In this document: in pieces, positions 427 through 16,700 of the stretch
Numbering within the stretch: the first letter of the stretch is position 1
How the letters are laid out: each line of letters begins with the position of its first letter
Origin: Candidatus Thalassarchaeaceae archaeon
GTDB lineage: Archaea > Thermoplasmatota > Poseidoniia > Poseidoniales > Thalassarchaeaceae
DNA length: 20,961 nt
Reading direction: 5' to 3'
Assembly (NCBI GenBank): GCA_030747675.1
Contig: JASLKH010000024.1
Location: 1-20,961 of the forward strand
Translations under genes and position numbers: made by a program
The notes under the pieces: generated by a model
Seen by the model: the letters and a program-made list of their open reading frames with translations, nothing else
Database searches by the model: none
Told to the model about the DNA's origin: nothing

Positions 427-936
427 ATGGCAAAGAAGAAACCGTCGGCGGATGAGAAAGCAGTAGAGCGATTAACAAGTTTACCTGGCGTGGGGGCAAA
501 GACTGCGTGGAAGTTAGTTTCTGCGAACATCAAAACATCTGCAGCGATTGCTAGAGTTGGCTCCAAAGGTTTAGCTAAAGCAGGAATAACTGGAGCTCTA
601 GCCACCCGAATTATTGCGGGAGCAGCCAAATCTGCAGGGGCCAAAGCATCCACCAAAGCCAAGAAAGCTGCAACAAAAGTCAAATCTACTGCAAAAGCAG
701 TTTCAGCAAAAACTAGCAAAACTACAAAGACAATCAAAATGTCTGCTAAAACAGCAGCAGCCAAGGGGAAAAGCAAAGCCACTAAGGCTGTAAAGAAAGT
801 GAGTGCTAAGAAACCTCGGGCTAAGAAGAAAGCTGCAGTGACGAAGAAGTCTAACAAGACCGTTGAGGTCAGTAGTCGAACCCTCAAGACACCTTCTTTG
901 AAGGACCTCCTCAAAAAAATTAAGAAACCAGATTGA
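427..936 (+). CDS. Helix-hairpin-helix domain protein with a long Lys/Ala-rich (histone H1-like) tail
   Basis: The N-terminal LTSLPGVGAKTAWKL...GITGALATRII matches the tandem HhH pattern (LPGVGxxTA). The rest is low-complexity K/A/T/S sequence (KAKKAATKVK, KAVKKVSAKKPRAKKKAA) with almost no acidic residues. Confidence 0.8.
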   Translation: MAKKKPSADEKAVERLTSLPGVGAKTAWKLVSANIKTSAAIARVGSKGLAKAGITGALATRIIAGAAKSAGAKASTKAKKAATKVKSTAKAVSAKTSKTTKTIKMSAKTAAAKGKSKATKAVKKVSAKKPRAKKKAAVTKKSNKTVEVSSRTLKTPSLKDLLKKIKKPD

Positions 937-942
937 TAATTT

Positions 943-2022
943 TTAATCGATTTCGGTTTGTTCAGATCCCATGGCAGATTGGGCTCTGTGATATATTTGA
1001 CGAAGACTTTGGTCACTTATTTCCAAATAAATTCTTGTTGCAGAAATATTTGCATGCCCCAATAGCCTCTGTATACTGACTAAATCAGCCCCTCTTTCCA
1101 ATAATCCTGTTGCAAAATTATGTCTTAGGGTATGTGGACTTAATTTTGAGCGAGGTATATCTGCTGAATCAGCCATTGAATCCATAAGTTTCTGAACAGC
1201 GCGAGGTGTTAATCTACGTCCTCGACGATTGAGAATAAGGGCATCCCTGTGCTCATCTGTGGGGGGATGCCTTACCACAATTTCATTTCTGATAGACTGA
1301 TATGCCTCAATAGAATCAACAGTTGAATTTGTGAATAAAATCAATCTATCCTTTGAGCCTTTACCTTCGACTACAGTGGCCGAAAAATCATCAATATCAA
1401 CATCTGCTCGATTTAATGCACATAATTCTGAAACACGCATTCCTGTATCTAGAAGTAAAGTAATTACTAGATGTGCAAATGGATTTTCAGATGTTGCAGC
1501 TGCTTCTTTCAAGCGCTCAATTTCTTTTTTAGCGAGAGTTTTCGGTAGACTTCTTCCTTTCTTAGGCCGTGTTATCCAATCGGGCACTCTGTGACCAATC
1601 CAAGCCATCAAATGCCCAATTGCTGCCATTCTAGCATTAATTGTTGCTGGAGATAAATTTGAAATTGATTGAACCCAAAAATCAAGGCGACCGTTGTTAG
1701 GATCGATCCATCTTGCTAATTCTTTCACAGTCATATTTTGTAAAGCATCGTAAGATGCTGGCATTTCTCCAGGCAATACTGTAGTAATGAACTGTTTCAG
1801 TGATGTACGATAAGAACGAAGTGTGTGCTTAGATTTTTTTTCACTGGCTAATTGCATTTCATAACAATTGAACCAGGGTAATTCAGCCAATCTGTTTAAC
1901 CTGCTGGGTAGTCCAAAAGAAACTCCAAGAGATTCCTCTGAGAATGGTGTTGCAAAATGCCCCCCGCTCTGGGATTCAGCCCAAGGTAAATTTTCTCGTG
2001 TATTCTCATTCTTCTTGCGCAT
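943..2022 (-). CDS. xerA: Tyrosine recombinase, XerC/D family (probable archaeal XerA)
   Basis: All catalytic residues are present: R (DTGMRVSEL), K (GKGSKDR), HxxR (PHTLRH), H (LLGH) and Y (TRIY). The N-terminal core-binding region has SKHTLRSY and SPATINARMAAI. No phage or IS cargo is adjacent. Confidence 0.88.
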   Translation of the reverse strand: MRKKNENTRENLPWAESQSGGHFATPFSEESLGVSFGLPSRLNRLAELPWFNCYEMQLASEKKSKHTLRSYRTSLKQFITTVLPGEMPASYDALQNMTVKELARWIDPNNGRLDFWVQSISNLSPATINARMAAIGHLMAWIGHRVPDWITRPKKGRSLPKTLAKKEIERLKEAAATSENPFAHLVITLLLDTGMRVSELCALNRADVDIDDFSATVVEGKGSKDRLILFTNSTVDSIEAYQSIRNEIVVRHPPTDEHRDALILNRRGRRLTPRAVQKLMDSMADSADIPRSKLSPHTLRHNFATGLLERGADLVSIQRLLGHANISATRIYLEISDQSLRQIYHRAQSAMGSEQTEID

Positions 2023-2165: not shown

Positions 2166-3434
2166 TCAGCGGCGTCGATTTCTCCATGACACGTTTTGGT
2201 CACTTATTGCCCATGCAGCGGGATCTTCTGCAACCTCTATATTCCAAGGATAAGGTTCTGGTGGTGAAGAGTTTCGTGCATCAATCGTTCGTTGGATAAG
2301 GGGTCGAATACGTTGTTGTAAAATATCGAGTATACCATAGAAAATTAATTCATCAGCTTCTCTTAGAATTAGATTATCATCCGGTTGCCAAACATGTGCA
2401 CCTGCTCTAGAAACTGCCACGATAGTGGCATCATCATCGTATACTATCAGGTCACCAAGCCTTTTTCCAACAAGTTCAGGATACCTTCTAATTTTCAGAG
2501 AAAGTGTACCATTTCCTTCTTTAGTTGTTAATAATTGATTTAGGTCAACATTAGTGAAGGCATGTGCATCAATAATATGATTCACAATATGACCAGCAAC
2601 ATTTACCCCTGTTGCTTTTTCAATACCCTCAAGTCCAGGACTTGAATTTACTTCAAGTAGAAGAGGTCCCCGATTTGACTCAAGTAAATCTACTCCTGCA
2701 ATATCAAGGTCTAGAAGTCTAGCAGCCTTACGAGCAATTCTGGCAAAATCCTCGGGTAAATCAATTCCTTCTACACTGCCACCTAGGTGGAAATTAGATC
2801 TAAATTCTCGACCGTGCGCCTTACGCCTCATTGCTGCAACAACTTCCCCTCCAACAACTAAAACACGGATATCCCGGCCATGACTTTCTTGAATATATTC
2901 TTGAACGAGAACTTGAATCCCTTTCTCTAGAAGTTCCCATGCTAATTCGCTTGCCTCTCTTTCAGTATGAGCTAGGAATACCCCACTGCCTTGGGTGCCT
3001 TCAGCAGCTTTGATCACGCAGGGAACGCCCCCTACTTGACGAATAGCCCTCTCTACATCACGCCAGTCGCGAACATATGCAGTTGTAGGCACTGGGATAT
3101 GGTTTGATGAGAGAATTTGTGTGGCATGTAACTTATCCCGACTCTGATGAATTCCCGAACTACTGTTTGCAGCGTAAATGCCCATCCGTTCAAACTGGCG
3201 AACAATCGCAACACCATGACGCGTAATTGAATAACCAATTCTTGGTAATATGGCATCAACTTCAACATTCCAACCTTCATTCAGAATCCTTCGCCCCTCA
3301 TTTCCGATAGTCAATGACAATTTCATTGGGTCAAGAACATCTACTGAACACCCAAGTGCATTTGCTTCTTCAACTAGGCGTCTCGTACTGTAAAGTCGCG
3401 GCCCCCGGGAAAGGATTGCGACACGGAGAGTCAT
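2166..3434 (-). CDS. rimK: RimK-family ATP-grasp alpha-L-glutamate ligase fused to a C-terminal TrkA_C (RCK_C) domain
   Basis: VAILSRGPRLYSTRRL resembles the bacterial RimK N-terminus. ATP-grasp motifs are SRDKL, VIK...GTQGSGV, VQEYI, GRDIRVLVVGG, FRSNFHLGG, AGVDL and LEVNSSPGLEGIE. The C-terminal ELVGKRLGDL...TIVAVSRAG...QPDDNLILREADELIFYG is TrkA_C-like. Confidence 0.88.
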   Translation of the reverse strand: MTLRVAILSRGPRLYSTRRLVEEANALGCSVDVLDPMKLSLTIGNEGRRILNEGWNVEVDAILPRIGYSITRHGVAIVRQFERMGIYAANSSSGIHQSRDKLHATQILSSNHIPVPTTAYVRDWRDVERAIRQVGGVPCVIKAAEGTQGSGVFLAHTEREASELAWELLEKGIQVLVQEYIQESHGRDIRVLVVGGEVVAAMRRKAHGREFRSNFHLGGSVEGIDLPEDFARIARKAARLLDLDIAGVDLLESNRGPLLLEVNSSPGLEGIEKATGVNVAGHIVNHIIDAHAFTNVDLNQLLTTKEGNGTLSLKIRRYPELVGKRLGDLIVYDDDATIVAVSRAGAHVWQPDDNLILREADELIFYGILDILQQRIRPLIQRTIDARNSSPPEPYPWNIEVAEDPAAWAISDQNVSWRNRRR

Positions 3435-3479
3435 GAACCTCCCGCCCCTCTCTCATTTTTGAGTCCTACGGCTGAAAAC

Positions 3480-3543
3480 CGCTTGAACGCGCCTGCGAGC
3501 GTACGCTCACACGCGCGCGTGAGGGACCCGAGCCTTTCAAGCG
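3480..3543. promoter_or_regulatory. Divergent promoter region with an inverted repeat enclosing two GC-rich palindromes
   Basis: CGCTTGAA (3480-3487) and TTCAAGCG (3536-3543) are exact reverse complements. Between them lie the perfect 12-bp palindromes GAGCGTACGCTC and CACGCGCGCGTG. The region separates the divergent starts at 3434 (-) and 3565 (+). Confidence 0.4.
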
Positions 3544-3564
3544 TCAAACGGTCCTCGGGTGTAC

Positions 3565-4731
3565 ATGCAGGCACCAGCAGGACCCTCTGGTCCACCGGTT
3601 GGGGGTCCCTCTGGCCCTCCAGTAGTATCAGGTCCATCAGGACCACCACTCACTGGGCCAAGTGGAACCTCGAATGAATCAGGAATTGGTAACTCAGATA
3701 CACCTTCTGCAGTGAATCCAGCACAATTTGATCCCCTTGCGGAAATTGAAGAAGCACGTGCCCGAAGAAAAAATCGAGAAGAATCTCTTGAAAGATTGCA
3801 GAAGAGGCGAAATAGCGCACGGGTTAATGTGTACCTTTTCTTGGCCCTGACAATTGTTTTTGCAGGTTTTTCATTTTTCCCTGTTACTTACGGAGATACT
3901 GATTTGACAGCATTCCCAGTAGGCCAAAATCAGCAACAGCATAATCAGTGGATTGACGATGGCAATTGGAATGAAGGTGGTTATGAAGAGAAGATATGGG
4001 ATGGATCTGATCCAGGTTCATCTTTGAAAGCTACATGGGAGGGATATATTCCCCCTCCAGTTCCAGATTTTGGTAGTGTCACATCGGTCCGAATTGATGT
4101 GGAAATCGCATCCTATCGCACAACTGGAAATACTTCCTTCACAGTAGGAATTTTTGACGGTGATTGTAAAGGTAAGTGGTTTGAAGATTTACCTGAAGAA
4201 TCATGGCATCATTTCAATGATTCAGTAGCACCCGGAAAAACCGTAGAAATCACTCTCTACACTCAACCAGGGGAGAAGTGCTTTTTGTTTGAATGGGACG
4301 AACGACCTACTGCTGGAGCATTACCAACAGTTGATATTGAGTTAGCGGTATATTGGCCGAGGATATTATCGGTTCCTGCTGCAAGCATCACATTTTTATT
4401 AGCAGGATTTGCATTTATTGGTGCACAAAAAACTGGACGAGAATTCAAACAATTGAAATATCCAGAAGGAAAACCAGAATCTAAAGTTGAGGATGAAGTA
4501 TTAGAAGCAGCAGAGGCTGAACAGCGTGAGCAAATTGATGCAGTTGTAGTTGAAGACCCCGAGAATTCAGATTCAATCAATCAACCTAGCCCAAATCTAG
4601 CACAAGTGGTATCTAGTGGTGATTCAGAACCCAAAGATGAACCTGAAAATTCTGCAGCAGCATACACTGATGAAGAATTACTTGGAGTGGGCTGGTCACA
4701 AGAACAAATTGACGCTATGCGCAATTCGTAA
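3565..4731 (+). CDS. Hypothetical membrane protein (Pro/Gly-rich N-terminus, two TM helices, acidic C-terminal tail)
   Basis: The ATG at 3565 is preferred over the GTG at 3559. TM1 is VYLFLALTIVFAGFSFF and TM2 is ILSVPAASITFLLAGFAFIGA, with a loop of roughly 155 aa between them. The tail ends YTDEELLGVGWSQEQIDAMRNS. Confidence 0.75.
   Translation: MQAPAGPSGPPVGGPSGPPVVSGPSGPPLTGPSGTSNESGIGNSDTPSAVNPAQFDPLAEIEEARARRKNREESLERLQKRRNSARVNVYLFLALTIVFAGFSFFPVTYGDTDLTAFPVGQNQQQHNQWIDDGNWNEGGYEEKIWDGSDPGSSLKATWEGYIPPPVPDFGSVTSVRIDVEIASYRTTGNTSFTVGIFDGDCKGKWFEDLPEESWHHFNDSVAPGKTVEITLYTQPGEKCFLFEWDERPTAGALPTVDIELAVYWPRILSVPAASITFLLAGFAFIGAQKTGREFKQLKYPEGKPESKVEDEVLEAAEAEQREQIDAVVVEDPENSDSINQPSPNLAQVVSSGDSEPKDEPENSAAAYTDEELLGVGWSQEQIDAMRNS
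3580..3666 (+). repeat. Coding tandem repeat (GPSGPP)x3 plus GPSG
   Basis: The translation is GPSGPP-VG-GPSGPP-VVS-GPSGPP-LT-GPSG. Synonymous codons differ between copies, so the repeat is conserved at protein level rather than being a recent DNA duplication. Confidence 0.85.
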
Positions 4732-4814
4732 TTGTAAGATAACATCACATTAGCATGCTCTGGAAGCGAAGAGGTTGAAAGCGTCAGGCATTGCCATCCT
4801 CTCTGAGGATGGCC

Positions 4815-6890
4815 ATGGCTAAGGACGAACTATCTGCCTTAACCGTAGCCGAACTGAAAGTTCGCTTGAAAGAATTAGGTCTCAAGATTACAGGAAAGAA
4901 GGCAGATTTAATCTCTAGAATTGAAGATGAAATTTCAAATGAAACTAGTGAAGAGGTTATTTTAATCGATGACGATGGCGATGCATTACTCGTTGAAGAT
5001 GTAAATCTTGAACCCTTAGATGAGCCTGAATTTTTTGAAGCCGAATTGATTGAAGATTCTGTTGAAGAGATTATTGAGGCAGAGGTATTGGAAGCAGTAA
5101 TCCCTGAAGAAAAGGCATCGCCAGCAAAAATTGCCCGAGTATCAACCACGTCGAACCCTTGGTACAAAGATGGAACTAATATTGCTACAATATTGGTTGT
5201 AATGTTGATTGTCGCAGGTGGCGGTTGGTGGTATTTTTCCACTCAAGAAGTAGTTTTCCAAGCATCCCCATCGCATTATGGTGACAAATTTGATTTTGAA
5301 GTCAAAAATGGGCAAGTTGAAATTAATGGCGATGAAATGGTCAAGTATATTCGTGATCAAATGCCGAGTGACTCACTTGGTTATCCCTGCGACTTGGTCA
5401 CCATTGATTTCGCAGGTACTGGAACGGCCTCGATTACTGAAGGGACGATTGAAGATTTGACTAGCCCGGTTGATAGTAAAATATTGGGCGCAATAAAAAT
5501 GAAAGATGGATATGGTAGAGAATGGAATACTGTAGAAGAAGTACTTTCTTACGATCTCAATGCAGACATTCGAGGCCACACTCAAATCGAAGATTTCTGT
5601 AGTTCAAATACACCATTTACAAGATTGAATAATGAAATCGATATTTCTATGACTCTCTGGACAGAGATTTTTGAAAAACGATCTTTGCGTAGCAACACAG
5701 TTCTTGACTTCCGGGACTCCGATGGTAAGCATTCGGCAACAGACACTACTACCTTTGGAGCCATTTCAAACTCTGAGAAATTGACAGAAATGCTTGATGT
5801 GGTCCTCCTCCCCATGCATCCAGTTGATATCTATGATATGTTTCAAGTTCAAATCTTGAGTGAAGGTATGACTGGCCAATATAATGGATGGGACTGGAGA
5901 GTTGGTGGCGAGTCTACAGTAAATGGTGACGATGCAATCATGGTGTACATGGAACATTTGGAAACAAAGGAGTGTCTTGGCAATGCAGCAGTTACATTGT
6001 GGGTAGTTCCTGACCGACCATGGCCTGCGAAACAAAGTGTAGAGGTGATGTTAGATGGAGATGGAAACGGACAATGTGGTGCATTGAATGAGGCAGCAAT
6101 TGATTATGCATTCCCTGAAGGAACACTACGAATTCAATACACATTGGAAGAATCTAATTTTATTCGTGGGTCAGATATATTGGATTGGAATGAACCATAT
6201 TCATCAATGCCACAGGCAGGTGAGGGACTTGGTTTCCAAGATGAAAAACTTTCTTGGAACACTGGGACACATATGTGGGATGACCCTAGTAATCAATCTA
6301 GCTCAACTCGTACATTTACTTTGGAGAAAGCCGTGGCTTGTGTAATTGCAGAACCCGCCACCTTTGGTGATGCAACTTCTGCATTATCTGGTGATGGATA
6401 TGTGTTTGGTGCTAAGGACGACCGCTCAGGGTCGGTACCTGTTTGGAATTTATCTTGGGTCAGTTCAACAGGTGCCGGATGGGTACGTGTGTCATGGCCT
6501 GGGGGTGATGGTTGTTTGAATTCTGGTGATGGATTTTTAGAGGGTGATGATCGACCTGAACATGGTCGTGATAAGATTCCTGAAACTTTAGAATTGCATT
6601 TACTGGAATCTCGTATGACAAACCCATCTTTTTATTCAGAATTGAATTCTCAAATCATGAATGGCGAATCATTGCGAAGTGATACACATTTAGCATATAG
6701 ACTTGTAATCCCAGAAGATAATGCTCTTACTGATTTACTACCTGACGATTTGATGAATGGAAAGGTTACCACCTACATAGATCGTTCTTGGACAATAAAT
6801 GGTGAAGAACATACTCTTCAAGCAGGGATGGATGCTGAAAATGGACGAATGGCAGGATGGGTTTTGACCACAAGACCTTCTGAGAGTTAA
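4815..6890 (+). CDS. SAP-domain single-pass membrane protein with a large extracytoplasmic domain
   Basis: LSALTVAELKVRLKELGLKITGKKADLISRI matches the SAP consensus. It is followed by an acidic linker, one hydrophobic helix (IATILVVMLIVAGGGWWYF, about 5181-5237), and more than 500 aa of acidic beta-rich sequence with six Cys. The start is ATG 4815 (GAGG upstream) or 4809; the ORF-track start at 4791 is a TTG. Confidence 0.8.
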   Translation: MAKDELSALTVAELKVRLKELGLKITGKKADLISRIEDEISNETSEEVILIDDDGDALLVEDVNLEPLDEPEFFEAELIEDSVEEIIEAEVLEAVIPEEKASPAKIARVSTTSNPWYKDGTNIATILVVMLIVAGGGWWYFSTQEVVFQASPSHYGDKFDFEVKNGQVEINGDEMVKYIRDQMPSDSLGYPCDLVTIDFAGTGTASITEGTIEDLTSPVDSKILGAIKMKDGYGREWNTVEEVLSYDLNADIRGHTQIEDFCSSNTPFTRLNNEIDISMTLWTEIFEKRSLRSNTVLDFRDSDGKHSATDTTTFGAISNSEKLTEMLDVVLLPMHPVDIYDMFQVQILSEGMTGQYNGWDWRVGGESTVNGDDAIMVYMEHLETKECLGNAAVTLWVVPDRPWPAKQSVEVMLDGDGNGQCGALNEAAIDYAFPEGTLRIQYTLEESNFIRGSDILDWNEPYSSMPQAGEGLGFQDEKLSWNTGTHMWDDPSNQSSSTRTFTLEKAVACVIAEPATFGDATSALSGDGYVFGAKDDRSGSVPVWNLSWVSSTGAGWVRVSWPGGDGCLNSGDGFLEGDDRPEHGRDKIPETLELHLLESRMTNPSFYSELNSQIMNGESLRSDTHLAYRLVIPEDNALTDLLPDDLMNGKVTTYIDRSWTINGEEHTLQAGMDAENGRMAGWVLTTRPSES

Positions 6891-6981
6891 TTTGGCCCAC
6901 AGAATATGGTCTGAAAACGGATTCTTTGGATTAATACCTCCCGTCAGCCTCAAGTGTGCAGGGGCTTCGGTAAGCCTCGGG

Positions 6982-7917
6982 ATGCATATGAAAGAAGAAG
7001 ATTTTCTCCCAGATGCGGTCCCTGCCCCTCTTGTTGTTGAATTCATAGAAGAGGAGTTTGAGCATGCTGATTTAGACTCTATTAGCTCTGCCGAACCTCG
7101 TACTCAGGTGGACTTACCTATTGCAGAACCTACTCCTAGTGGTCGAGCAAGAGTTGTGACGGTGATGAATCAAAAAGGTGGGGTAGGGAAAACCACCACG
7201 GTGATTAACGTAGCAACTCACCTTGCTTTAAATGGAGTTCGTGTTCTTGTGGTAGACTGTGATCAACAGGGGAATTGTGCTACAGGGCTTGGAATTGATA
7301 AAAGTCGAGTAAAACATACCACAAGAACGTTGTTTACAGAACCTGAATTAGCACCCGCTTGTCGTCATGCAACAGCAGTTCAAGGATTGCATTTAGTCGT
7401 AGGTGAACGCAGTTTGGTTGGGTTGGAACAAGATCTTTCAACGATGCTTGGTAGAGAAAGGTGTTTACATGAGGGCCTAGAATCTTTACTTCCTCATTAT
7501 GATATTGTATTCTTGGACACAGCACCGAGTCTAGGATTAGTGACAATTAATGCACTTGTTGCTAGTGATGCGGTATTGGTACCGGTTCAAACAGAATTTT
7601 TCGCATTGGAGGGCGTGGCGATGTTAGCCTCAACAATTCGAGAAGTACGCCGTCGATTAAATCCACGTTTAGGATTTGATGGAGTGATGATGACAATGCA
7701 CGCTCCAACCTTATTGAATAGTCAAGTTAAGAGCCAATTAGTCGAAACGTTTGGAGATTTGATTGTTGAACCCCCAATTCGAAGAAATATCAAACTCGCA
7801 GAAGCACCAAGTGAAGGTATTCCAATTCATATTCATGCACCTGAAAGTAATGGGGGACGAGATTATAGCGCCCTCGCACAAAATTTGGCCCTTCGATGGG
7901 GTTTGCAAATGAAGTGA
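6982..7917 (+). CDS. parA: ParA/Soj family ATPase with an acidic N-terminal extension
   Basis: It has the deviant Walker A NQKGGVGKTTT, Walker A' VDCDQQGN, Walker B FLDTAP, PVQTEFFALEG and IRRNIKLAEAPSEG. The start is ATG 6982 or 6988; the ORF-track start at 6892 is a TTG. Confidence 0.9.
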   Translation: MHMKEEDFLPDAVPAPLVVEFIEEEFEHADLDSISSAEPRTQVDLPIAEPTPSGRARVVTVMNQKGGVGKTTTVINVATHLALNGVRVLVVDCDQQGNCATGLGIDKSRVKHTTRTLFTEPELAPACRHATAVQGLHLVVGERSLVGLEQDLSTMLGRERCLHEGLESLLPHYDIVFLDTAPSLGLVTINALVASDAVLVPVQTEFFALEGVAMLASTIREVRRRLNPRLGFDGVMMTMHAPTLLNSQVKSQLVETFGDLIVEPPIRRNIKLAEAPSEGIPIHIHAPESNGGRDYSALAQNLALRWGLQMK

Positions 7918-7921
7918 TGTG

Positions 7922-8377
7922 ATGGTTAAGAAACGTAGCCTTGCTCGGGGGTTAGATGAGTTGTTAGCCCAACATGATCAGGATTTACCATTTCTTGATG
8001 CATATGGCCCAGTAATTTCAACTGAAGATGAATTAATTGCGCAGAACACCGATGGTTCAGGAGACCAATTACTTGAAGTAATTCTCCGATTATTGCGCTC
8101 GAAAGGTGAAAAAGTTTCAATCGAAGATGGTCTTCAAATTGGAGATTTTTTTTCAGCTAAGAAATCAGAAATCGGCGTCAAATTGATTGTCCAAAGTAAA
8201 CATTCAAGTTTACCTTTGGTCCCATCAGACCTTAATGCTCCCGGATTTGAATATGGTGAGTTATCAAAAGATAGAAACACAGTCAAATTAACAATTGTTC
8301 AATGGGGAATACCAGCTAGAAGATTCATTGAACGACTTTGTGAACATCGGTCTCTAGAGGATGATTCAAGCCAATGA
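7922..8377 (+). CDS. Small ParA-partner candidate with a ParB-like N-terminal peptide
   Basis: It starts 4 nt after the parA stop. The N-terminus MVKKRSLARGLDELL matches the ParB/Spo0J peptide pattern (KKxxLGRGLxALL). No ParB CTPase motif or HTH is evident in the remaining sequence. It overlaps the convergent pepC 3' end by 12 nt. Confidence 0.75.
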   Translation: MVKKRSLARGLDELLAQHDQDLPFLDAYGPVISTEDELIAQNTDGSGDQLLEVILRLLRSKGEKVSIEDGLQIGDFFSAKKSEIGVKLIVQSKHSSLPLVPSDLNAPGFEYGELSKDRNTVKLTIVQWGIPARRFIERLCEHRSLEDDSSQ

Positions 8378-9691
8378 GCCCATTGGATCCCAAGCAGGGA
8401 GGACGACTGGTTCAGAATCAAGTCCTTTTAGCATTTTTTCAGTCAGGTAATTTTTGGGTGCTGCGATTTCAAACATATATTCATCATACCATGAATCATT
8501 CATAGTGTAGTATCCCTTCTGTCCTGAATCATCACCCCATGAATTCTCAACACGCCATCGGCGTGGCTTCCCATCAACAACATCAACCCCTGTAAACAGC
8601 ATAGCATGTGTCATCATAGTTTGCCCATGACGCAAACGGTTTTCTTTGTCCATTCCATATTCAACACCATACAAATCACTCACATTGAACAAATTTGCAT
8701 CCCAATAGCCGCCTTTGCGGTCCATTTCCTTACCTACATCACAACCCATCCATACTGGAACACCATCTTCGAGAAGTCTTTGTGTAATCTTCTTCATTTC
8801 CTTACTTGGAACATTGAGATATACAACAGGGGGGCCCCCTGCAACATTTTGCAGATAGTCAACTGTATAGGTCCTGTAGTACTCATTTCGAGGGTCATTT
8901 ACTATACAGACATAGTTCCTCCAATCCACATCTACATACTCTGCAGCAAATTCTTGGGGTGTCATATCCCCTTTTCGATGGAATCCCCCATCTTTATCCC
9001 TCCATTGCCAATCAAAACTTGTTGGTGGTGTTCCTAAATGAATGCATAACATATCCCATATATCTGCAACACGTTTTTCTTTGTGTTTCCGAGCATCCTC
9101 GACCCTCCCACCTTTTTCGAGAATAGACCGAATTTCGCAGGCTGAACTTCTGAGGATATTCTTTAATTCCATATTCATCCATCGAGTTGCGCTACTAGTA
9201 TTAGATTCAGGATATGCAGATTTAGGCACAAGACCGTGCTTCTCAATTAGATTCATCGCCATGTTCCATTGGCCTCCATCACCAATTGGATCTGAAAGTA
9301 GAAAGTGGATTGTTCGGTCATCTACAGGCCGGTCAGCGGTATCAATAATTGCTTCTAGGAGATGGTTTGAACGTTCGAATTTATCCCAAAAGTGAATGTG
9401 TGCTTGGCTAAATTCAAAATTCTTAACATTCATTTTTTCCATCGCCCCAACTCTGAAAAGATTTAATGCGGCAAAAAGCCAACAACGGCCACTACTTTTT
9501 TGTGAAGTGACTTTCCATTCATCCAGCTTGGTGCTGAATGTGTTTTGTGTATCTTGAATGACATTCCGATTTAGGGCCAAACTGGGTAATTGAACGCTGG
9601 TCACGGCATTTTGTGCTACGATTTTTGAAGGTTTAGAATCAAATGCATTTCGAAGCTCAGTAATTTGCCCATTAGTAATTTCCACATCCAT
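8366..9691 (-). CDS. pepC: Aminopeptidase C / bleomycin hydrolase (peptidase family C1B)
   Basis: Catalytic motifs are QKSSGRCWLFAALN (Gln/Cys), MTHAM (His) and WRVENSWG (Asn), and the C-terminus is WDPMGSLA. ATG 9691 (GGTGA upstream) is preferred; ATG 9739 is the alternative. Confidence 0.92.
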   Translation of the reverse strand: MDVEITNGQITELRNAFDSKPSKIVAQNAVTSVQLPSLALNRNVIQDTQNTFSTKLDEWKVTSQKSSGRCWLFAALNLFRVGAMEKMNVKNFEFSQAHIHFWDKFERSNHLLEAIIDTADRPVDDRTIHFLLSDPIGDGGQWNMAMNLIEKHGLVPKSAYPESNTSSATRWMNMELKNILRSSACEIRSILEKGGRVEDARKHKEKRVADIWDMLCIHLGTPPTSFDWQWRDKDGGFHRKGDMTPQEFAAEYVDVDWRNYVCIVNDPRNEYYRTYTVDYLQNVAGGPPVVYLNVPSKEMKKITQRLLEDGVPVWMGCDVGKEMDRKGGYWDANLFNVSDLYGVEYGMDKENRLRHGQTMMTHAMLFTGVDVVDGKPRRWRVENSWGDDSGQKGYYTMNDSWYDEYMFEIAAPKNYLTEKMLKGLDSEPVVLPAWDPMGSLA

Positions 9692-9731
9692 AGTCTCACC
9701 TTGGTGAGATGTACCTCTCCATCGAAGATGC

Positions 9732-10277
9732 TTAGTCATCTCGCTTTGCAATTAAGGCTGCGGACAATCCAACAATAACAGTGAGCATCAGTGTAGGGGC
9801 CGGCAATCCACTAGATTCTTCAGAGCATTTTTCACCACCAGTTTCATCTCCATCGGTCCAACAATCAGACCAAATTTTTCCACCATTAGTGAATCCGTTT
9901 TCCGGGAATTTCTCAGATTCACCATCGGCATAATTCAAGATAATGTCATAGTTGACGTAAGAGTGATCATCTACAGGAGTAATTGTACCGATCCAATGAC
10001 TATCCGAACTACTATTTTCCATATTCAACACTTCAGGAGGGTTGCAAACACCGGTATTCAAGCACATTTGAACAGTCCATTGAACAGTAGTTCCATTTTC
10101 AGCATGAAGCGTTACTTCTACAGTTACACTCTCTCCATCACTCGATGAATTTGGAGAAGATATTGATGAAATAGGCGTATTTGAAACATCAATTGTTTGG
10201 TTCACTCCTGAATTTCCAGCAGTAGCAAATGGTACTGCCAAAAGTAAAGCAATGCATATTGCAAATATGCGCTTCAT
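9732..10277 (-). CDS. Secreted protein with a C-terminal membrane anchor / sorting-signal-like tail
   Basis: The signal peptide is MKRIFAICIALLLAVPFATA. The acidic mature domain has four Cys. The C-terminus is GLPAPT plus a hydrophobic helix plus KRDD. Confidence 0.72.
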   Translation of the reverse strand: MKRIFAICIALLLAVPFATAGNSGVNQTIDVSNTPISSISSPNSSSDGESVTVEVTLHAENGTTVQWTVQMCLNTGVCNPPEVLNMENSSSDSHWIGTITPVDDHSYVNYDIILNYADGESEKFPENGFTNGGKIWSDCWTDGDETGGEKCSEESSGLPAPTLMLTVIVGLSAALIAKRDD

Positions 10278-14037: not shown

Positions 14038-14183
14038 AACAATTCCTCCACCGAATATGCTCGTCCCGATGTGCCTCCAACGAGAGGGGTGGTTCTCAAC
14101 CCTTGCGCATGGAAACGCTCTGATGTTCGATTTGCAAGATGTTCACCCATATAATTGAAAGACACCCGCTTCAATCAAGGCTT

Positions 14184-16700
14184 ATGGGCGTTGAAGAGGA
14201 TGCCTGTATCGTCGCGGCATCCTACCAGAGTTTTGGTACAGAAACTGTTGTTGAACTCTGGTTACGTGCACGTGAAGGCCACTCAACACTATTGTTGGTT
14301 CATGGTTTACGCCCTTTTCTCGAAATAGCAGTTGCCGGAAAAACAGCAAATTTACCATCGGATATTGAGGAAAAGTTGGAAAAAGTGCGTAGTATTAAAG
14401 GTGTAACTTCAATTCATAACCCCATAGAAAAGTGGACCGATTTGGGTATAAAACCTCATTGGAAAGTTGAGGTTAAGCAGCCTTGGATGATTACGAGTGG
14501 TCCAAAAATTCGTGACTCAATCAAAGCATTAGGTGGTTGGACAGTTACTAGTGCAGATATCATATTCCCCCAACGCTTGTTGTTAGATTTAGACCTCGGT
14601 CCGCACATTAGATGGAAAGGTGAATTGCTACCAAAGGATGGAGATGTTATTCGTGATGCAGGTGGGCGAGGGCAGTACCCCACAGATCGAGTTGCACGTT
14701 GTCATATTGATGACTTACGGGCAACCGAAGCATTTGCTGCACCGTTTGTGACATTTTCATTCGATTTGGAGACTAGTATTGAATCGGGACGAATATTGTG
14801 TGCTGCTGCGGTTGTTGAACAAAACGGGCAAAGTGAAACATATAGATTCCGAGGCGATGAACGTGAGATGTTGGAAGGCTTGACTCGCTTGGTTCGGGAA
14901 AGTGACCCCGACATCATCACGGGATACAATATTGATAATTTCGATTTACCTAAGATCAAAGAACGCATGAAAGCATTAGAATGTTCGAAAGACCAATTGA
15001 CCAAAGCATCACTTGCAGGTTGGGGGCGAATTCCAATCACAGAGGAGGCGTGTAAAGGGGGTGTTCGAGGTGCACCCATTCTGGCTAATCGGCAACAGAA
15101 TCGAAAATGGACACTTTCGGGGCGCTGTGTAATGGATGCATGGTGGGAGGCGCGAATGACATTACGTCCTAAGCGCGAGACTCTCAAGTTCGTCTCTGAA
15201 TTATTGTTCCCTGAGCGAGAAGAGCTTCGGAAGATGGATGTGGATGCTAGTCGTATGGATGAAGAATGGGCCTCACGCCCGGATGTCGTACTCGATTATT
15301 GTGCACAAGATGCACTTCTTCCCATTGAGATCCTGAATGCAATATCTGCGACGGCACGCAAGGAAGCCTTAGCTGCAGTGGGTAAGGTACCTTTGGAGAC
15401 TACAATTATTGGATCAACTAGTCAATGGTTGGATAGTTTGGTTATCCGATTAGCAGATCGTGAGAATATTGCCGTACCAATGACGCGACGTGGGGGGAAA
15501 TCAGATGCTATTACTGGTGGATATGTTCATGATATCGAAGGTGGTCGTTATCCATGGGTTGCAGTACTTGATTTCAAGTCGATGTATCCTTCGATTATGA
15601 TTACAAATAATATTTGTCACACCACTCGGGTTGACAATGTTGATGAATCCACTGAAGTCAATGAATCACCCAGTGGAACGAAATTTTTGAAGAAGGAAAT
15701 TCGAGAAGGTCTTGTACCACGATTGTTACAAGATTTAATGGCTCAACGGGATGAACATAAAAAACAGATGAAATGTGCAGAAGATGAATCAACACGTATG
15801 TTCCACAACCAGATGCAATCTGCAGTCAAAATCCTGATGAATACATTTTACGGAGTCTTCGCATCTGCATTTTATCGGTTTACACATCCAGATATCGGTT
15901 CAGCAATCACAGCTTGGGCTCGGTCGAATATTAAGAAAATAATTCACGCATTGGATCAAGAAGGCCACCCTGTTGTATATTCAGATACTGATTCAGTCTT
16001 TGTTTCTGCACCCGGAGAAGGCAAGGAAGCATTAGTTGAATTCGGTCAGGAATTAGCTAGTCGATTCACAAAGGAAGGCGCTGAATTAGAATTCGAGAAG
16101 GGGCTATCGGTCTTTTTCAGTCATGGTGCCAAAAAACGTTATGTTGGTCGTGTAGTTTGGCCTGAAGAGGATTTGTTAATTCGGGGATATGAGGTACGGA
16201 GAACAGATTCCTTCGAACTATTGAATAGAACTATGATGGGAACCTTTGAACGTATTCTCGATGGTGATGAGGAGGGTGCTTACAAGCATGTCATTGACTT
16301 GATTCGTTCAGTTAAAGCCGGCGAAGTAGGTGTTGAGGATCTTATCATCAGCCGTTCTTGCAAAGGAAAATGGGATTCAAAGAATAATGAATGGGAGTTC
16401 GATAGTGTATATGCTAACCCAGATGGTCTACCGTATGTTAAAGCAGCACGAAAACGCATAGCCCGTGGTCTTCAATTTACACCTGGGATGAAAGTGAGTT
16501 ACATAGTTACTGATGCCAAAAATGGGCAAACAGTTGAACCATGGTTGGTTGCGGAGACAGACGACCCCCCCCCAACGCCTGATTGGGCATTCTACGCTGA
16601 ACGATTAGCAAGAGCTATGGGGAGAATAACTGAAGTGTATGGCTGGAGTAAAGAGGATTTACTCAAAGGAAGTCGCCAATCAACATTATTTTCGTTCTGA
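14184..16700 (+). CDS. polB: Family B DNA polymerase with 3'-5' exonuclease
   Basis: ExoI is FDLET, ExoII GYNIDNFD and ExoIII YCAQDA. Polymerase motifs are DFKSMYPS, KILMNTFYG and YSDTDS. The C-terminus has a PIP-box-like QSTLFSF, and there is no intein-sized insertion. ATG 14184 is preferred over 14139. Confidence 0.95.
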   Translation: MGVEEDACIVAASYQSFGTETVVELWLRAREGHSTLLLVHGLRPFLEIAVAGKTANLPSDIEEKLEKVRSIKGVTSIHNPIEKWTDLGIKPHWKVEVKQPWMITSGPKIRDSIKALGGWTVTSADIIFPQRLLLDLDLGPHIRWKGELLPKDGDVIRDAGGRGQYPTDRVARCHIDDLRATEAFAAPFVTFSFDLETSIESGRILCAAAVVEQNGQSETYRFRGDEREMLEGLTRLVRESDPDIITGYNIDNFDLPKIKERMKALECSKDQLTKASLAGWGRIPITEEACKGGVRGAPILANRQQNRKWTLSGRCVMDAWWEARMTLRPKRETLKFVSELLFPEREELRKMDVDASRMDEEWASRPDVVLDYCAQDALLPIEILNAISATARKEALAAVGKVPLETTIIGSTSQWLDSLVIRLADRENIAVPMTRRGGKSDAITGGYVHDIEGGRYPWVAVLDFKSMYPSIMITNNICHTTRVDNVDESTEVNESPSGTKFLKKEIREGLVPRLLQDLMAQRDEHKKQMKCAEDESTRMFHNQMQSAVKILMNTFYGVFASAFYRFTHPDIGSAITAWARSNIKKIIHALDQEGHPVVYSDTDSVFVSAPGEGKEALVEFGQELASRFTKEGAELEFEKGLSVFFSHGAKKRYVGRVVWPEEDLLIRGYEVRRTDSFELLNRTMMGTFERILDGDEEGAYKHVIDLIRSVKAGEVGVEDLIISRSCKGKWDSKNNEWEFDSVYANPDGLPYVKAARKRIARGLQFTPGMKVSYIVTDAKNGQTVEPWLVAETDDPPPTPDWAFYAERLARAMGRITEVYGWSKEDLLKGSRQSTLFSF

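What the first reader, a model, noticed from the sequence alone, without database searches (positions are those of the whole stretch)
4815..8377. Candidate membrane-tethered chromosome segregation system: SAP-TM protein + ParA/Soj + ParB-peptide adaptor
Seen in sequence: three co-oriented genes. The first is a protein with an N-terminal SAP domain, acidic linker, one TM helix and a large outside domain. The second is an intact Soj-like ATPase. The third, 4 nt downstream, is a 151-aa protein that begins with a ParB-type peptide but has no ParB core. Established knowledge: ParB N-terminal peptides with a conserved Arg stimulate Soj/ParA ATPase, SAP domains bind DNA, related SAP/LEM folds tether chromatin to the eukaryotic inner nuclear membrane, and known archaeal systems are SegAB and AspA-ParB-ParA. 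Inference: DNA binding (SAP) and ParA activation (small protein) may be split between proteins, with DNA anchored to the envelope. This arrangement does not match ParABS or SegAB as I know them. Adjacency alone may be coincidental.
Basis: partly seen in the sequence, partly recalled or inferred. Interest (0 to 1): 0.8.

Follow-up and report, generated by a model that had tools for sequence, protein, structure and literature searches.

The report
ParB-less archaeal ParA–adaptor membrane module
In Marine Group II archaea a bacterial-type DNA-positioning ATPase (ParA) has no ParB; ParB's short ParA-docking peptide sits on a small lineage-specific protein (on a membrane transporter in a sister clade), beside a membrane protein with a cytoplasmic SAP domain, which suggests an untested link between nucleoid and cell membrane.

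Summary
Window 4815-8377 encodes three co-oriented genes. The first is a single-pass membrane protein with a cytoplasmic SAP domain. The second is an intact Soj-type ParA (ParA1). The third, 4 nt downstream, is a 151-aa protein whose only resemblance to ParB is the N-terminal ParA-binding peptide.

The organism is a Thalassarchaeaceae (Poseidoniales, MGIIb) MAG. No ParB domain was found in it or in five near-complete relatives.

The ParA1-peptide link is well supported:
- In one Thalassarchaeaceae clade the small protein is replaced by a 10-TM EamA permease carrying the same peptide.
- Where ParA1 is lost (most Poseidoniaceae), the ParB-like half of the peptide (basic residues, Leu at -2) decays while the rest is kept.
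- A profile of the archaeal peptides picks out bacterial ParB N-termini.

SAP-TM involvement rests on synteny alone, inside a 10-12-gene collinear block. SAP-TM and the small protein also persist without ParA1.

The small protein's body is an acidic alpha/beta domain. It is not ParB and not ribbon-helix-helix. No centromere-like repeats were found, and the cluster is not origin-proximal.

This is a new variant of ParA/adaptor systems; function untested. This scan had already found the same module in other MGII genomes, and my results agree.

The parts
3559..4731 (+). Possible part: two-TM membrane protein (TM390) with a GPSGPP-repeat N-terminus and an acidic C-terminal tail ending in a conserved YTDE-LLG-GW-QEQIDAMR motif. 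It is co-oriented and directly upstream of the SAP-TM gene.
   Evidence: TM segments at residues 86-112 and 268-290. No Pfam hit. Syntenic in Thalassarchaeaceae, and at 20-25% identity in Poseidoniaceae. Tail motif. Membership in the module rests on position only.
4815..6890 (+). SAP-TM protein. Cytoplasmic SAP domain (nt 4830-4928), acidic disordered linker (nt 4947-5159) with conserved hydrophobic-acidic short motifs, one TM helix (nt 5172-5240), and a large beta-rich outside domain (nt 5262-6887).
   Evidence: Pfam SAP E 2.4e-11; 25 of 25 orthologues. AF2 model m60202d50b2b2, pLDDT 77.5. Hydropathy and charge. Foldseek matches of the outside domain: DUF1849 6ntr (prob 0.99), LolA3, LprG, RseB/MucB. 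Atlas relatives occur only in Thermoplasmatota. Linker motifs.
6940..6954 (+). Conserved 15-mer CCCGTCAGCCTCAAG in the SAP-TM/parA1 spacer, 28 nt upstream of the parA1 ATG and preceded by an A/T-rich stretch. It is probably a promoter or 5'UTR element of parA1.
   Evidence: Conserved in about 24 same-genus species within an otherwise variable spacer. Single copy in the window and the genome. The function is inferred.
6982..7917 (+). ParA1: a Soj-type deviant Walker A ATPase. It has a roughly 55-aa lineage-specific N-terminal extension (LPEV..APL-IID-EF motif) and a C-terminal RWGL motif.
   Evidence: AAA_31 5e-51. T. thermophilus Soj 1wcv 5e-51. Monophyletic Poseidoniales clade with 100/100 support on a long stem, and a topology that follows taxonomy. 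Present in all Thalassarchaeaceae genera searched, in family f2, and in one Poseidoniaceae genus.
7922..8377 (+). Small adaptor protein. N-terminal ParB-type ParA-binding peptide (nt 7931-8005, KKRSLARGLDELL... with invariant Arg9), a disordered acidic linker, and a C-terminal alpha-beta3-alpha-beta2-alpha domain (nt 8054-8374).
   Evidence: Alignment A1. AF2 model m6255f0450bbd: residues 45-150 have pLDDT about 96, and the N-terminus has low confidence. Only 91 representatives in 1.8 billion proteins. All 80 loci kept from 224 confirmed relatives carry Poseidoniales, Thermoplasmatota or euryarchaeote MAG titles. Peptide tests. Acidic C-domain, pI 4.5-7.3, mostly below 6.

Best explanation
ParA1 and the gene that follows it form a ParB-less ParA/adaptor pair. 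The adaptor's disordered N-terminal peptide has the same motif that bacterial ParB uses to dock on the ParA dimer and raise its ATPase rate. The rest of the adaptor is the thing that is positioned or anchored. Here that is a small acidic alpha/beta domain, most likely a protein-binding module. In a sister clade it is a ten-helix EamA permease.

One version of the adaptor is an integral membrane protein, and the module always sits beside membrane proteins. I therefore infer that the pair couples nucleoid-bound ParA1-ATP to the cell membrane. It would either space a membrane-associated complex over the nucleoid or hold the nucleoid against the envelope.

The neighbouring SAP-TM protein would give a ParA-independent DNA-to-membrane tether in the same process, possibly as the partner of the small protein's body.

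Shown: the domain anatomy, the absence of ParB, the identity of the peptide, and its evolutionary coupling to ParA1.

Inferred: ATPase stimulation, DNA binding by ParA1 and by SAP, the membrane coupling, and any role of SAP-TM.

My confidence is about 0.8 for the ParA1-peptide pair, about 0.5 for membrane coupling, and about 0.35 for SAP-TM participation.
For: ParA1 is an intact Soj-type ATPase.

No ParB_N domain was found in G000 (78% complete) or in five relatives that are 91-98% complete. The positive controls did give hits.

Peptide consensus in ParA1 genomes is KRGLGRGLxDLL.
- The profile hits the H. pylori ParB N-terminus.
- It ranks bacterial ParB N-termini first among 36 CDS.
- hhalign aligns only the peptide.
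- PMC12462528 describes the ParB motif, its central R/K, and shows the motif is sufficient for ParA binding and, together with DNA, for activation.

Body swap: in genera g10 and g12-14 the gene after parA1 is an EamA permease that starts with MAKGGLGRGLDEI or MPKRGLGRGLGEI.
- The small protein is not found in those genomes.
- Their ParA1 sequences form one clade.

Covariation across 77 species loci: Leu at -2 occurs in 40 of 42 loci with ParA1 and in 1 of 35 without. The one exception, L069, still has a ParA1 fragment. Mean charge before the invariant Arg is +1.8 with ParA1 and -0.7 without. A Poseidoniaceae-type lineage that keeps ParA1 (L130) also keeps GLGRGL.

Another Thermoplasmatota family has a Soj-like ParA followed by a non-ParB protein that starts with MGKPALGKGMRDLI.

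SAP-TM lies directly upstream of parA1 in every parA1 locus with enough flank.
Against: Nothing is tested biochemically. No complex could be modelled.

The covariation rests on few independent events: essentially one ParA1 loss and one EamA swap.

The small protein and the second half of its peptide stay strongly conserved in lineages without ParA1. It must therefore have a ParA1-independent role or another partner, for example the universal paralogue ParA2.

Genus g11 keeps ParA1 and EamA but has lost the peptide.

SAP-TM linkage is positional only, within a collinear block. A conserved promoter-like element separates it from parA1.

The Arg that aligns with the DNA-binding Arg of Soj (R189 in B. 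subtilis, from memory) is Pro in ParA1 in the alignment. DNA binding by ParA1 is therefore not assured.
Confidence: 0.5

Rival explanations
1. The small protein is itself a centromere-binding protein of a new fold. It would be a functional ParB analogue, as RHH proteins HpaB, SegB and ParG are. ParA1 plus the small protein would then be a two-gene chromosome partition system, and the SAP-TM gene would be only a neighbour.
For: The gene order is parA followed by a roughly 150-aa partner with 4-nt spacing, as in hpaAB (PMC13722703). The best structural matches of the C-domain are the 'double-wing' DNA-binding folds: YjbR 2fki Z 7.6, DR2400 Z 7.1, T4 MotA C-terminal domain Z 7.0, and Foldseek E 0.026.
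Against: Those Z values are at the tool's stated noise level, and frataxin and T3SS-chaperone/YbjN folds score nearby. The domain is acidic in nearly all orthologues. No repeated or palindromic site was found in the locus, and the one conserved spacer element is single-copy. There is no exact canonical parS. The cluster lies 174-520 kb from the cdc6 genes. In one clade the body is replaced by a permease that cannot be a centromere binder.
Confidence: 0.15
2. The primary pair is SAP-TM plus the small protein, or the small protein plus the universal orphan paralogue ParA2. ParA1 would be an accessory that some lineages dispensed with.
For: In most Poseidoniaceae ParA1 is absent, and the small gene follows the SAP-TM gene directly with a gap of about 40 nt. 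The peptide's second half (LDHLMEQN..EL.FLSAYGG) is even more conserved there. ParA2 is present in all 61 genomes searched and has no partner gene beside it. The SAP-TM linker carries conserved short motifs typical of protein docking sites.
Against: In genus g4 the SAP-TM gene and the small gene are about 100 kb apart. Genomes with the EamA version keep SAP-TM without the small protein. The ParB-like half of the peptide tracks ParA1, not SAP-TM.
Confidence: 0.2
3. SAP-TM is unrelated to the ParA module. It would be an envelope protein, with a LolA/LprG/RseB-like outside domain, whose gene lies there only because the whole region is collinear. The ParA1/adaptor pair would position some other cargo.
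For: The block XerA-RimK-TM390-SAP-TM-(ParA1)-small-(PepC)-o9732-PUA-FAH keeps its order across the order although it holds unrelated genes. parA1 has its own conserved upstream element. SAP-TM is present whether or not ParA1 is.
Against: The genes are co-oriented with short spacers. Adjacency is kept even after ParA1 loss. A cytoplasmic DNA-binding-type domain on a membrane protein next to a nucleoid ATPase whose alternative partner is a membrane protein is a coherent theme. ParA1's N-extension and the SAP-TM linker carry similar hydrophobic-acidic motifs. That similarity is weak evidence.
Confidence: 0.3

Closest known systems
Bacterial chromosomal ParABS (Soj/ParA, Spo0J/ParB, parS; e.g. 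T. thermophilus, M. xanthus, H. pylori)
   Same: ParA1 is a Soj-type ATPase; 1wcv is the best solved relative. The downstream gene begins with the ParB ParA-binding motif LGRGLxxL with a central Arg (PMC12462528).
   Different: There is no ParB/Srx CTPase domain, HTH or dimerisation domain anywhere in the genomes searched. No parS array was found. The locus is not origin-proximal. The peptide is carried by a small alpha/beta protein or by a permease.
HpaAB of Haloferax volcanii (PMC13722703, 2026)
   Same: An archaeal ParA of bacterial type is followed at a few nucleotides by a roughly 150-aa non-ParB partner that engages ParA through its N-terminus.
   Different: HpaB binds DNA through a ribbon-helix-helix and forms foci on pHV3. 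The small protein here has no RHH and is acidic. It carries the canonical ParB motif and has a membrane-protein alternative.
ParA/MinD cargo-adaptor systems (McdAB, PomXYZ, PpfA-TlpT; reviews PMC11407121, PMC10241942)
   Same: A ParA-family ATPase has an adjacent adaptor whose N-terminal peptide contacts the ATPase, while the body of the adaptor defines a non-DNA cargo.
   Different: Those adaptors do not carry the ParB consensus itself (my knowledge). The cargo here is unknown. The system is archaeal, and one adaptor version is a polytopic transporter-family protein.
SegAB and AspA-ParB-ParA of Sulfolobales
   Same: These are archaeal ParA-type ATPases with a dedicated partner encoded beside them.
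   Different: SegB is an RHH site-specific DNA binder. The AspA system has a wHTH protein and a true ParB N-domain. None of these features is present here.
Eukaryotic HeH/LEM/SAP inner-nuclear-membrane proteins (Heh1/Src1, Heh2, MAN1, LEM2)
   Same: The architecture is the same: an N-terminal helix-extension-helix DNA-binding-type domain on the nucleoplasmic or cytoplasmic side, a linker, and a membrane anchor.
   Different: There is a single TM, no MSC/winged-helix domain, and a large LolA/RseB-like outside domain. The similarity is of design. Common descent is not shown.

Membership tests
Bacterial ParABS | Soj/ParA deviant Walker A ATPase | tested here: met
   AAA_31 5e-51. KGGVGKT, the DxD and the Walker B are present. 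T. thermophilus Soj 5e-51.
Bacterial ParABS | ParB with ParB_N/Srx CTPase domain and HTH | tested here: not met
   No Pfam or NCBIfam hit on the small protein. PF02195 was not found in G000 or above cut-off in 5 near-complete relatives, with positive controls. hhalign against ParB aligns only the peptide.
Bacterial ParABS | N-terminal ParA-binding motif with central Arg/Lys on the partner | tested here: met
   Consensus KRGLGRGLxDLL. The profile ranks bacterial ParB N-termini first among 36 CDS. H. pylori ParB residues 3-14 are hit. The motif is described in PMC12462528.
Bacterial ParABS | parS centromere sites near the origin | tested here: not met
   No repeat family stands out in 3300-8600. 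There is no exact canonical parS in the genome; near-matches are scattered and none lies in the window. The cdc6 genes are 174-520 kb away in relatives. A non-canonical site cannot be excluded.
SegAB / HpaAB / type Ib-II partition (RHH partner) | Small partner with a ribbon-helix-helix DNA-binding fold | tested here: not met
   The AF2 topology is alpha-beta3-alpha-beta2-alpha at pLDDT about 96, and the N-terminus is disordered. No RHH Pfam hit.
SegAB / HpaAB | parA followed closely by a roughly 100-150-aa partner gene | tested here: met
   The ParA1 stop is at 7917 and the small protein's ATG is at 7922.
AspA-ParB-ParA | wHTH AspA plus a ParB N-domain adaptor | tested here: not met
   Neither is present in the locus or the genome.
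ParA/MinD cargo-adaptor systems | Adaptor N-terminus stimulates the ATPase; adaptor body binds a defined cargo | not testable with these tools
   Only sequence and evolutionary coupling are shown. There is no biochemistry and no multimer model.
SAP domain (PF02037) | Helix-extension-helix motif matching the Pfam model above cut-off | tested here: met
   43.4 bits against a cut-off of 23.9. Found in 25 of 25 orthologues. AF2 helices at 11-21 and 29-44.
HeH/LEM inner-nuclear-membrane proteins | Two TM segments and a MAN1-Src1 C-terminal (MSC) domain | tested here: not met
   One TM. There is no MSC hit, and the outside domain is LolA/RseB-like.
Double-wing DNA-binding fold (YjbR / MotA C-terminal domain) | Structural match well above background | tested here: inconclusive
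   Z 7.0-7.6 and Foldseek E 0.026, at the stated noise level. Frataxin and T3SS-chaperone/YbjN folds score Z 4.4-6.5.

The most novel reading that the evidence does not exclude
Poseidoniales may organise or segregate their nucleoid against the cell membrane rather than through a ParB/parS centromere. Membrane-anchored carriers of the ParB peptide (the EamA permease, or the small protein docked on the SAP-TM or TM390 tails) would locally switch off nucleoid-bound ParA1. The SAP domain would pin DNA to the envelope. This would be a prokaryotic counterpart of chromatin tethering by HeH/LEM proteins at the nuclear envelope, and a new class of ParA system in which the membrane is the 'cargo'.
Probability: 0.2. 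Interest if true: 0.85.

Novelty: new variant of a known kind. Interest (0 to 1): 0.62.

Why it matters
Marine Group II archaea are among the most abundant planktonic archaea, are uncultured, and nothing is known of how they handle their chromosome. This locus gives a concrete, testable module: a bacterial-type ParA that has kept only the 10-25-residue docking peptide of ParB. That peptide has been transplanted onto two unrelated carriers, one of them an integral membrane protein. It shows the ParB peptide behaving as a portable module in nature. A second Thermoplasmatota family carries it on yet another protein. The locus also extends the short list of archaeal ParA systems (SegAB, AspA-ParBA, HpaAB). 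If the SAP-TM protein takes part, it would be a prokaryotic example of a DNA-to-membrane tether built like eukaryotic inner-nuclear-membrane proteins.

Tried and rejected
- Centromere search. Repeats in 3300-8600 gave only chance-level families. The conserved spacer 15-mer is single-copy, so it is a promoter or UTR element and not a parS array. Canonical parS has no exact copy.
- Origin proximity. The cdc6 genes lie 174-520 kb from the cluster in closed or large assemblies. This gives no support.
- Rosetta-stone fusion. Representative P0077 reads ParA's C-terminus in frame into the peptide. In the related genomes L079-L094 the two genes are in different frames. It is probably a frameshift, so I did not use it.
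- The single 30-aa peptide against PDB sequences gave no hits. Only the profile gave the weak H. pylori ParB hit.
- Other peptide carriers in G000. A six-frame ORF scan with the peptide profile found only the small protein. The next hits are a conserved internal DinB motif and chance-level matches.
- EamA version in this genome and four other relatives: not found with that query.
- Fold assignment of the small protein's body and of the SAP-TM outside domain. Only generic alpha/beta-sandwich and LolA/RseB-like matches were obtained. No function can be drawn from them.
- Literature. No paper in the library links Poseidoniales with a SAP domain or Soj.


Full report
**What is there.** The window comes from a Thalassarchaeaceae (Marine Group II b, Ca. 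Poseidoniales) MAG. Contig titles of related loci say so. The assembly is 78% complete.

On the plus strand, with short spacers, lie four genes:
- a two-TM protein (3559-4731);
- the SAP-TM protein (4815-6890, with an alternative ATG at 4809);
- ParA1 (6982-7917);
- a 151-aa protein (7922-8377).

On the minus strand, upstream, are RimK and a XerA-type recombinase. Downstream are a C1-like peptidase, an unknown protein, a PUA protein and a FAA hydrolase. Further on are S8e, SRP19, PolB and EF-1alpha.

**The three proteins.** SAP-TM:
- It has a Pfam SAP domain at residues 6-38 (E 2.4e-11), found in 25 of 25 orthologues.
- A disordered linker follows, with net charge -20, then one TM helix at 120-142.
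- The roughly 540-residue beta-rich domain has six invariant cysteines.
- Its only structural neighbours are LolA/LprG/RseB/DUF1849-type half-barrels.
- Atlas relatives are confined to Thermoplasmatota.
- With no signal peptide and an N-terminal SAP domain, the SAP side is cytoplasmic. This is inferred.

ParA1:
- It is an intact Soj-type ATPase. The best solved relative is T. thermophilus Soj at 5e-51.
- It has a lineage-specific acidic N-terminal extension and a conserved C-terminal RWGL.

The small protein:
- It has no Pfam or NCBIfam family.
- Its family has only 91 representatives among 1.8 billion proteins.
- In the AF2 model the N-terminal 44 residues are of low confidence. Residues 45-150 form an alpha-beta3-alpha-beta2-alpha domain at pLDDT about 96.
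- Structure searches give only noise-level matches: YjbR and T4 MotA C-terminal domain at Z about 7, and frataxin, T3SS chaperones and YbjN at Z 4-6.5.
- The domain is acidic.
- It is not ParB and not ribbon-helix-helix.

**Is the peptide really ParB-like?** Yes.
- In genomes with ParA1 the consensus is KRGLGRGLxDLLxQHDxDLPFLxAYG.
- I fetched six bacterial soj-parB loci through the closest Soj homologues in the plasmid collection. Their ParBs begin with GLGRGLGALL, GLGKGINALF, LGRGLAALI and similar.
- The archaeal peptide profile ranks ParB N-termini first to fourth among 36 CDS, aligned at ParB residues 5-21. It misses Noc.
- A profile search of PDB sequences returns the H. pylori ParB N-terminus among five weak hits.
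- hhalign of the small-protein family against the ParB alignment aligns only residues 3-25 with the ParB N-terminus.

**No ParB.** PF02195 is not found in G000. It is not found above cut-off in five relatives that are 91-98% complete, although it hits 9-11 of 14 control genomes.

**Evolutionary evidence for the ParA1-peptide pair.**
1. Synteny. The block XerA-RimK-TM390-SAP-TM-ParA1-small recurs in Thalassarchaeaceae and in family f2.
2. Body swap. In genera g10, g12, g13 and g14 the gene after parA1 is a roughly 320-aa EamA permease.
   - Its N-terminus carries the same peptide, for example MAKGGLGRGLDEIYSKTEGPDLSSFV.
   - The small protein is not found in those genomes.
   - That permease is not found in G000 or four other relatives.
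   - Their ParA1 sequences form one clade (99/93), so this was a single event.
3. Loss. Most Poseidoniaceae lack ParA1.
   - There the small gene follows SAP-TM directly, or in genus g4 lies about 100 kb away.
   - Its peptide has lost the basic residues and the Leu at -2, becoming D-G-RGLDHLMEQN or KQRDLDHLMEQN.
   - Over 77 species loci, Leu at -2 is present in 40 of 42 with ParA1 and in 1 of 35 without. The exception retains a ParA1 fragment.
   - A Poseidoniaceae-type lineage that keeps ParA1 keeps GLGRGL (L130).
4. These are few independent events, so the counts are not statistics, but all point the same way.
5. ParA1 is monophyletic with a topology that follows taxonomy. It was therefore present in the ancestor of the order.

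**What weakens the larger story.**
- The small protein, and the second half of its peptide, remain under strong constraint without ParA1. It therefore has another partner or role.
- A second Soj-like paralogue, ParA2 (Walker A KGGCAKT), is present in all 61 genomes searched, without a partner gene. It is a candidate.
- SAP-TM involvement rests on position only, and the whole block is collinear, including unrelated genes.
- The SAP-TM/parA1 spacer holds an A/T-rich stretch and a conserved single-copy 15-mer. It looks like parA1's own promoter or 5'UTR.
- No centromere-like repeats were found.
- The cluster is 174-520 kb from the cdc6 genes.
- Genus g11 keeps ParA1 and EamA without the peptide.

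**Mechanism proposed.** ParA1-ATP dimers sit on the nucleoid. This is inferred from Soj, and one DNA-binding Arg of Soj is not conserved, so it needs a test. The adaptor peptide docks at the dimer interface and triggers hydrolysis. The adaptor body links this to something else. One natural body is a permease and the gene's neighbours are membrane proteins, so the most economical reading is a nucleoid-to-membrane coupling or positioning device. SAP-TM would be a possible DNA tether or docking site. Its linker carries conserved hydrophobic-acidic short motifs, as does ParA1's N-extension.

**Comparison with known systems.**
- It works like a ParA/adaptor system of the McdAB or HpaAB kind.
- It uses the ParB motif of bacterial ParABS, but it is not a member of ParABS because it lacks a ParB core and parS.
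- It is not SegAB or HpaAB, because the partner has no RHH.
- HpaAB (PMC13722703) is the nearest experimentally studied archaeal case.
- I found no paper that describes this module.

**Earlier notes of this scan.** I read these after my own analysis. They describe the same module in other MGII genomes, both the EamA and small-protein versions, and reach the same verdicts. New here are:
- the peptide-state/ParA1 covariation;
- the ParA2 paralogue and the ParA tree;
- the folds of both proteins;
- the ParB-N-terminus recognition test;
- the spacer element;
- a third peptide carrier in another Thermoplasmatota family.

**Verdict.** This is a new variant of a known kind. Interest 0.62.

Noticed in passing
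G000:C54 ~8900-9781 (cut by contig end); L032:7974-9056 in a relative: A second Soj-like paralogue (ParA2, about 40% identical to ParA1, Walker A KGGCAKT with an insertion after it) is present in all 61 Poseidoniales genomes searched. It lies next to MoxR/aIF5B, 25-60 kb from the cluster, with no partner gene downstream. It is a possible partner of the small protein where ParA1 is lost.
   Followed up: partly
L140:1507-3490 (+), L138, L139; L159:182-2053 (-): In another Thermoplasmatota family a 253-aa Soj-like ParA is followed, with an 8-nt overlap, by a 409-aa helical/TPR protein that begins MGKPALGKGMRDLIAK. This is a ParB-like peptide on a third kind of non-ParB carrier. In two further families the ParA is fused to a long helical-repeat tail of similar make-up.
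   Followed up: partly
window 6940-6954: The 15-mer CCCGTCAGCCTCAAG is conserved in about 24 congeneric species in an otherwise variable spacer and is single-copy in the genome. Together with GGGATGCA-ATG at the start codon, it may be a promoter, 5'UTR or small hairpin element of parA1.
   Followed up: partly
window 3559-4731: A two-TM protein with GPSGPP repeats at the N-terminus and a C-terminal motif YTDE(E/Q)LLGxGW(S/T)QEQIDAMR. The motif is conserved in Thalassarchaeaceae, duplicated in one genus, and replaced by a different tail in Poseidoniaceae.
   Followed up: partly
window 4947-5159 and 6982-7150: The SAP-TM linker has two conserved short motifs in a variable acidic region: (V/I)L(I/S)L(D/E)DDD and (V/I)LEAE(V/I)(F/L)EAE(I/V)(L/I). 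ParA1's N-terminal extension has a similar LPEV..APL(I/V)(I/V)D(V/A)EF(V/L)EE motif. These may be shared docking motifs.
   Followed up: partly
window 7870-7917: ParA1 orthologues end in a conserved RWGL motif that is absent from bacterial Soj and from the other Thermoplasmatota ParAs compared. A Methanosarcina plasmid ParA ends in KRWGM.
   Followed up: no
window 4786-4820: A 16-nt inverted repeat (88% complementary, 3-nt loop) spans the SAP-TM start codons at 4809 and 4815. It may be a translational control hairpin or the terminator of the upstream gene.
   Followed up: no
window 8366-9751 (-): A bleomycin-hydrolase-type C1 peptidase gene lies between the small gene and the next block gene only in some Thalassarchaeaceae genera. 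It overlaps the 3' end of the small gene by 12 nt, in convergent orientation.
   Followed up: no
window 427-2022 and 14139-16700: The neighbourhood is rich in chromosome-biology genes: an ORF at 427-936 (an HhH protein with a Lys/Ala-rich tail according to an earlier first-reader note, not checked here), a XerA-type recombinase, and family B DNA polymerase. It is nevertheless not close to either cdc6 gene in relatives.
   Followed up: partly
G000:C7, minus strand ORF (about 232 aa): An acidic protein with the N-terminus MAKKGGFGRFLGGL is a weak look-alike of the ParB-type peptide (E 5 in the genome scan). It is probably chance.
   Followed up: no
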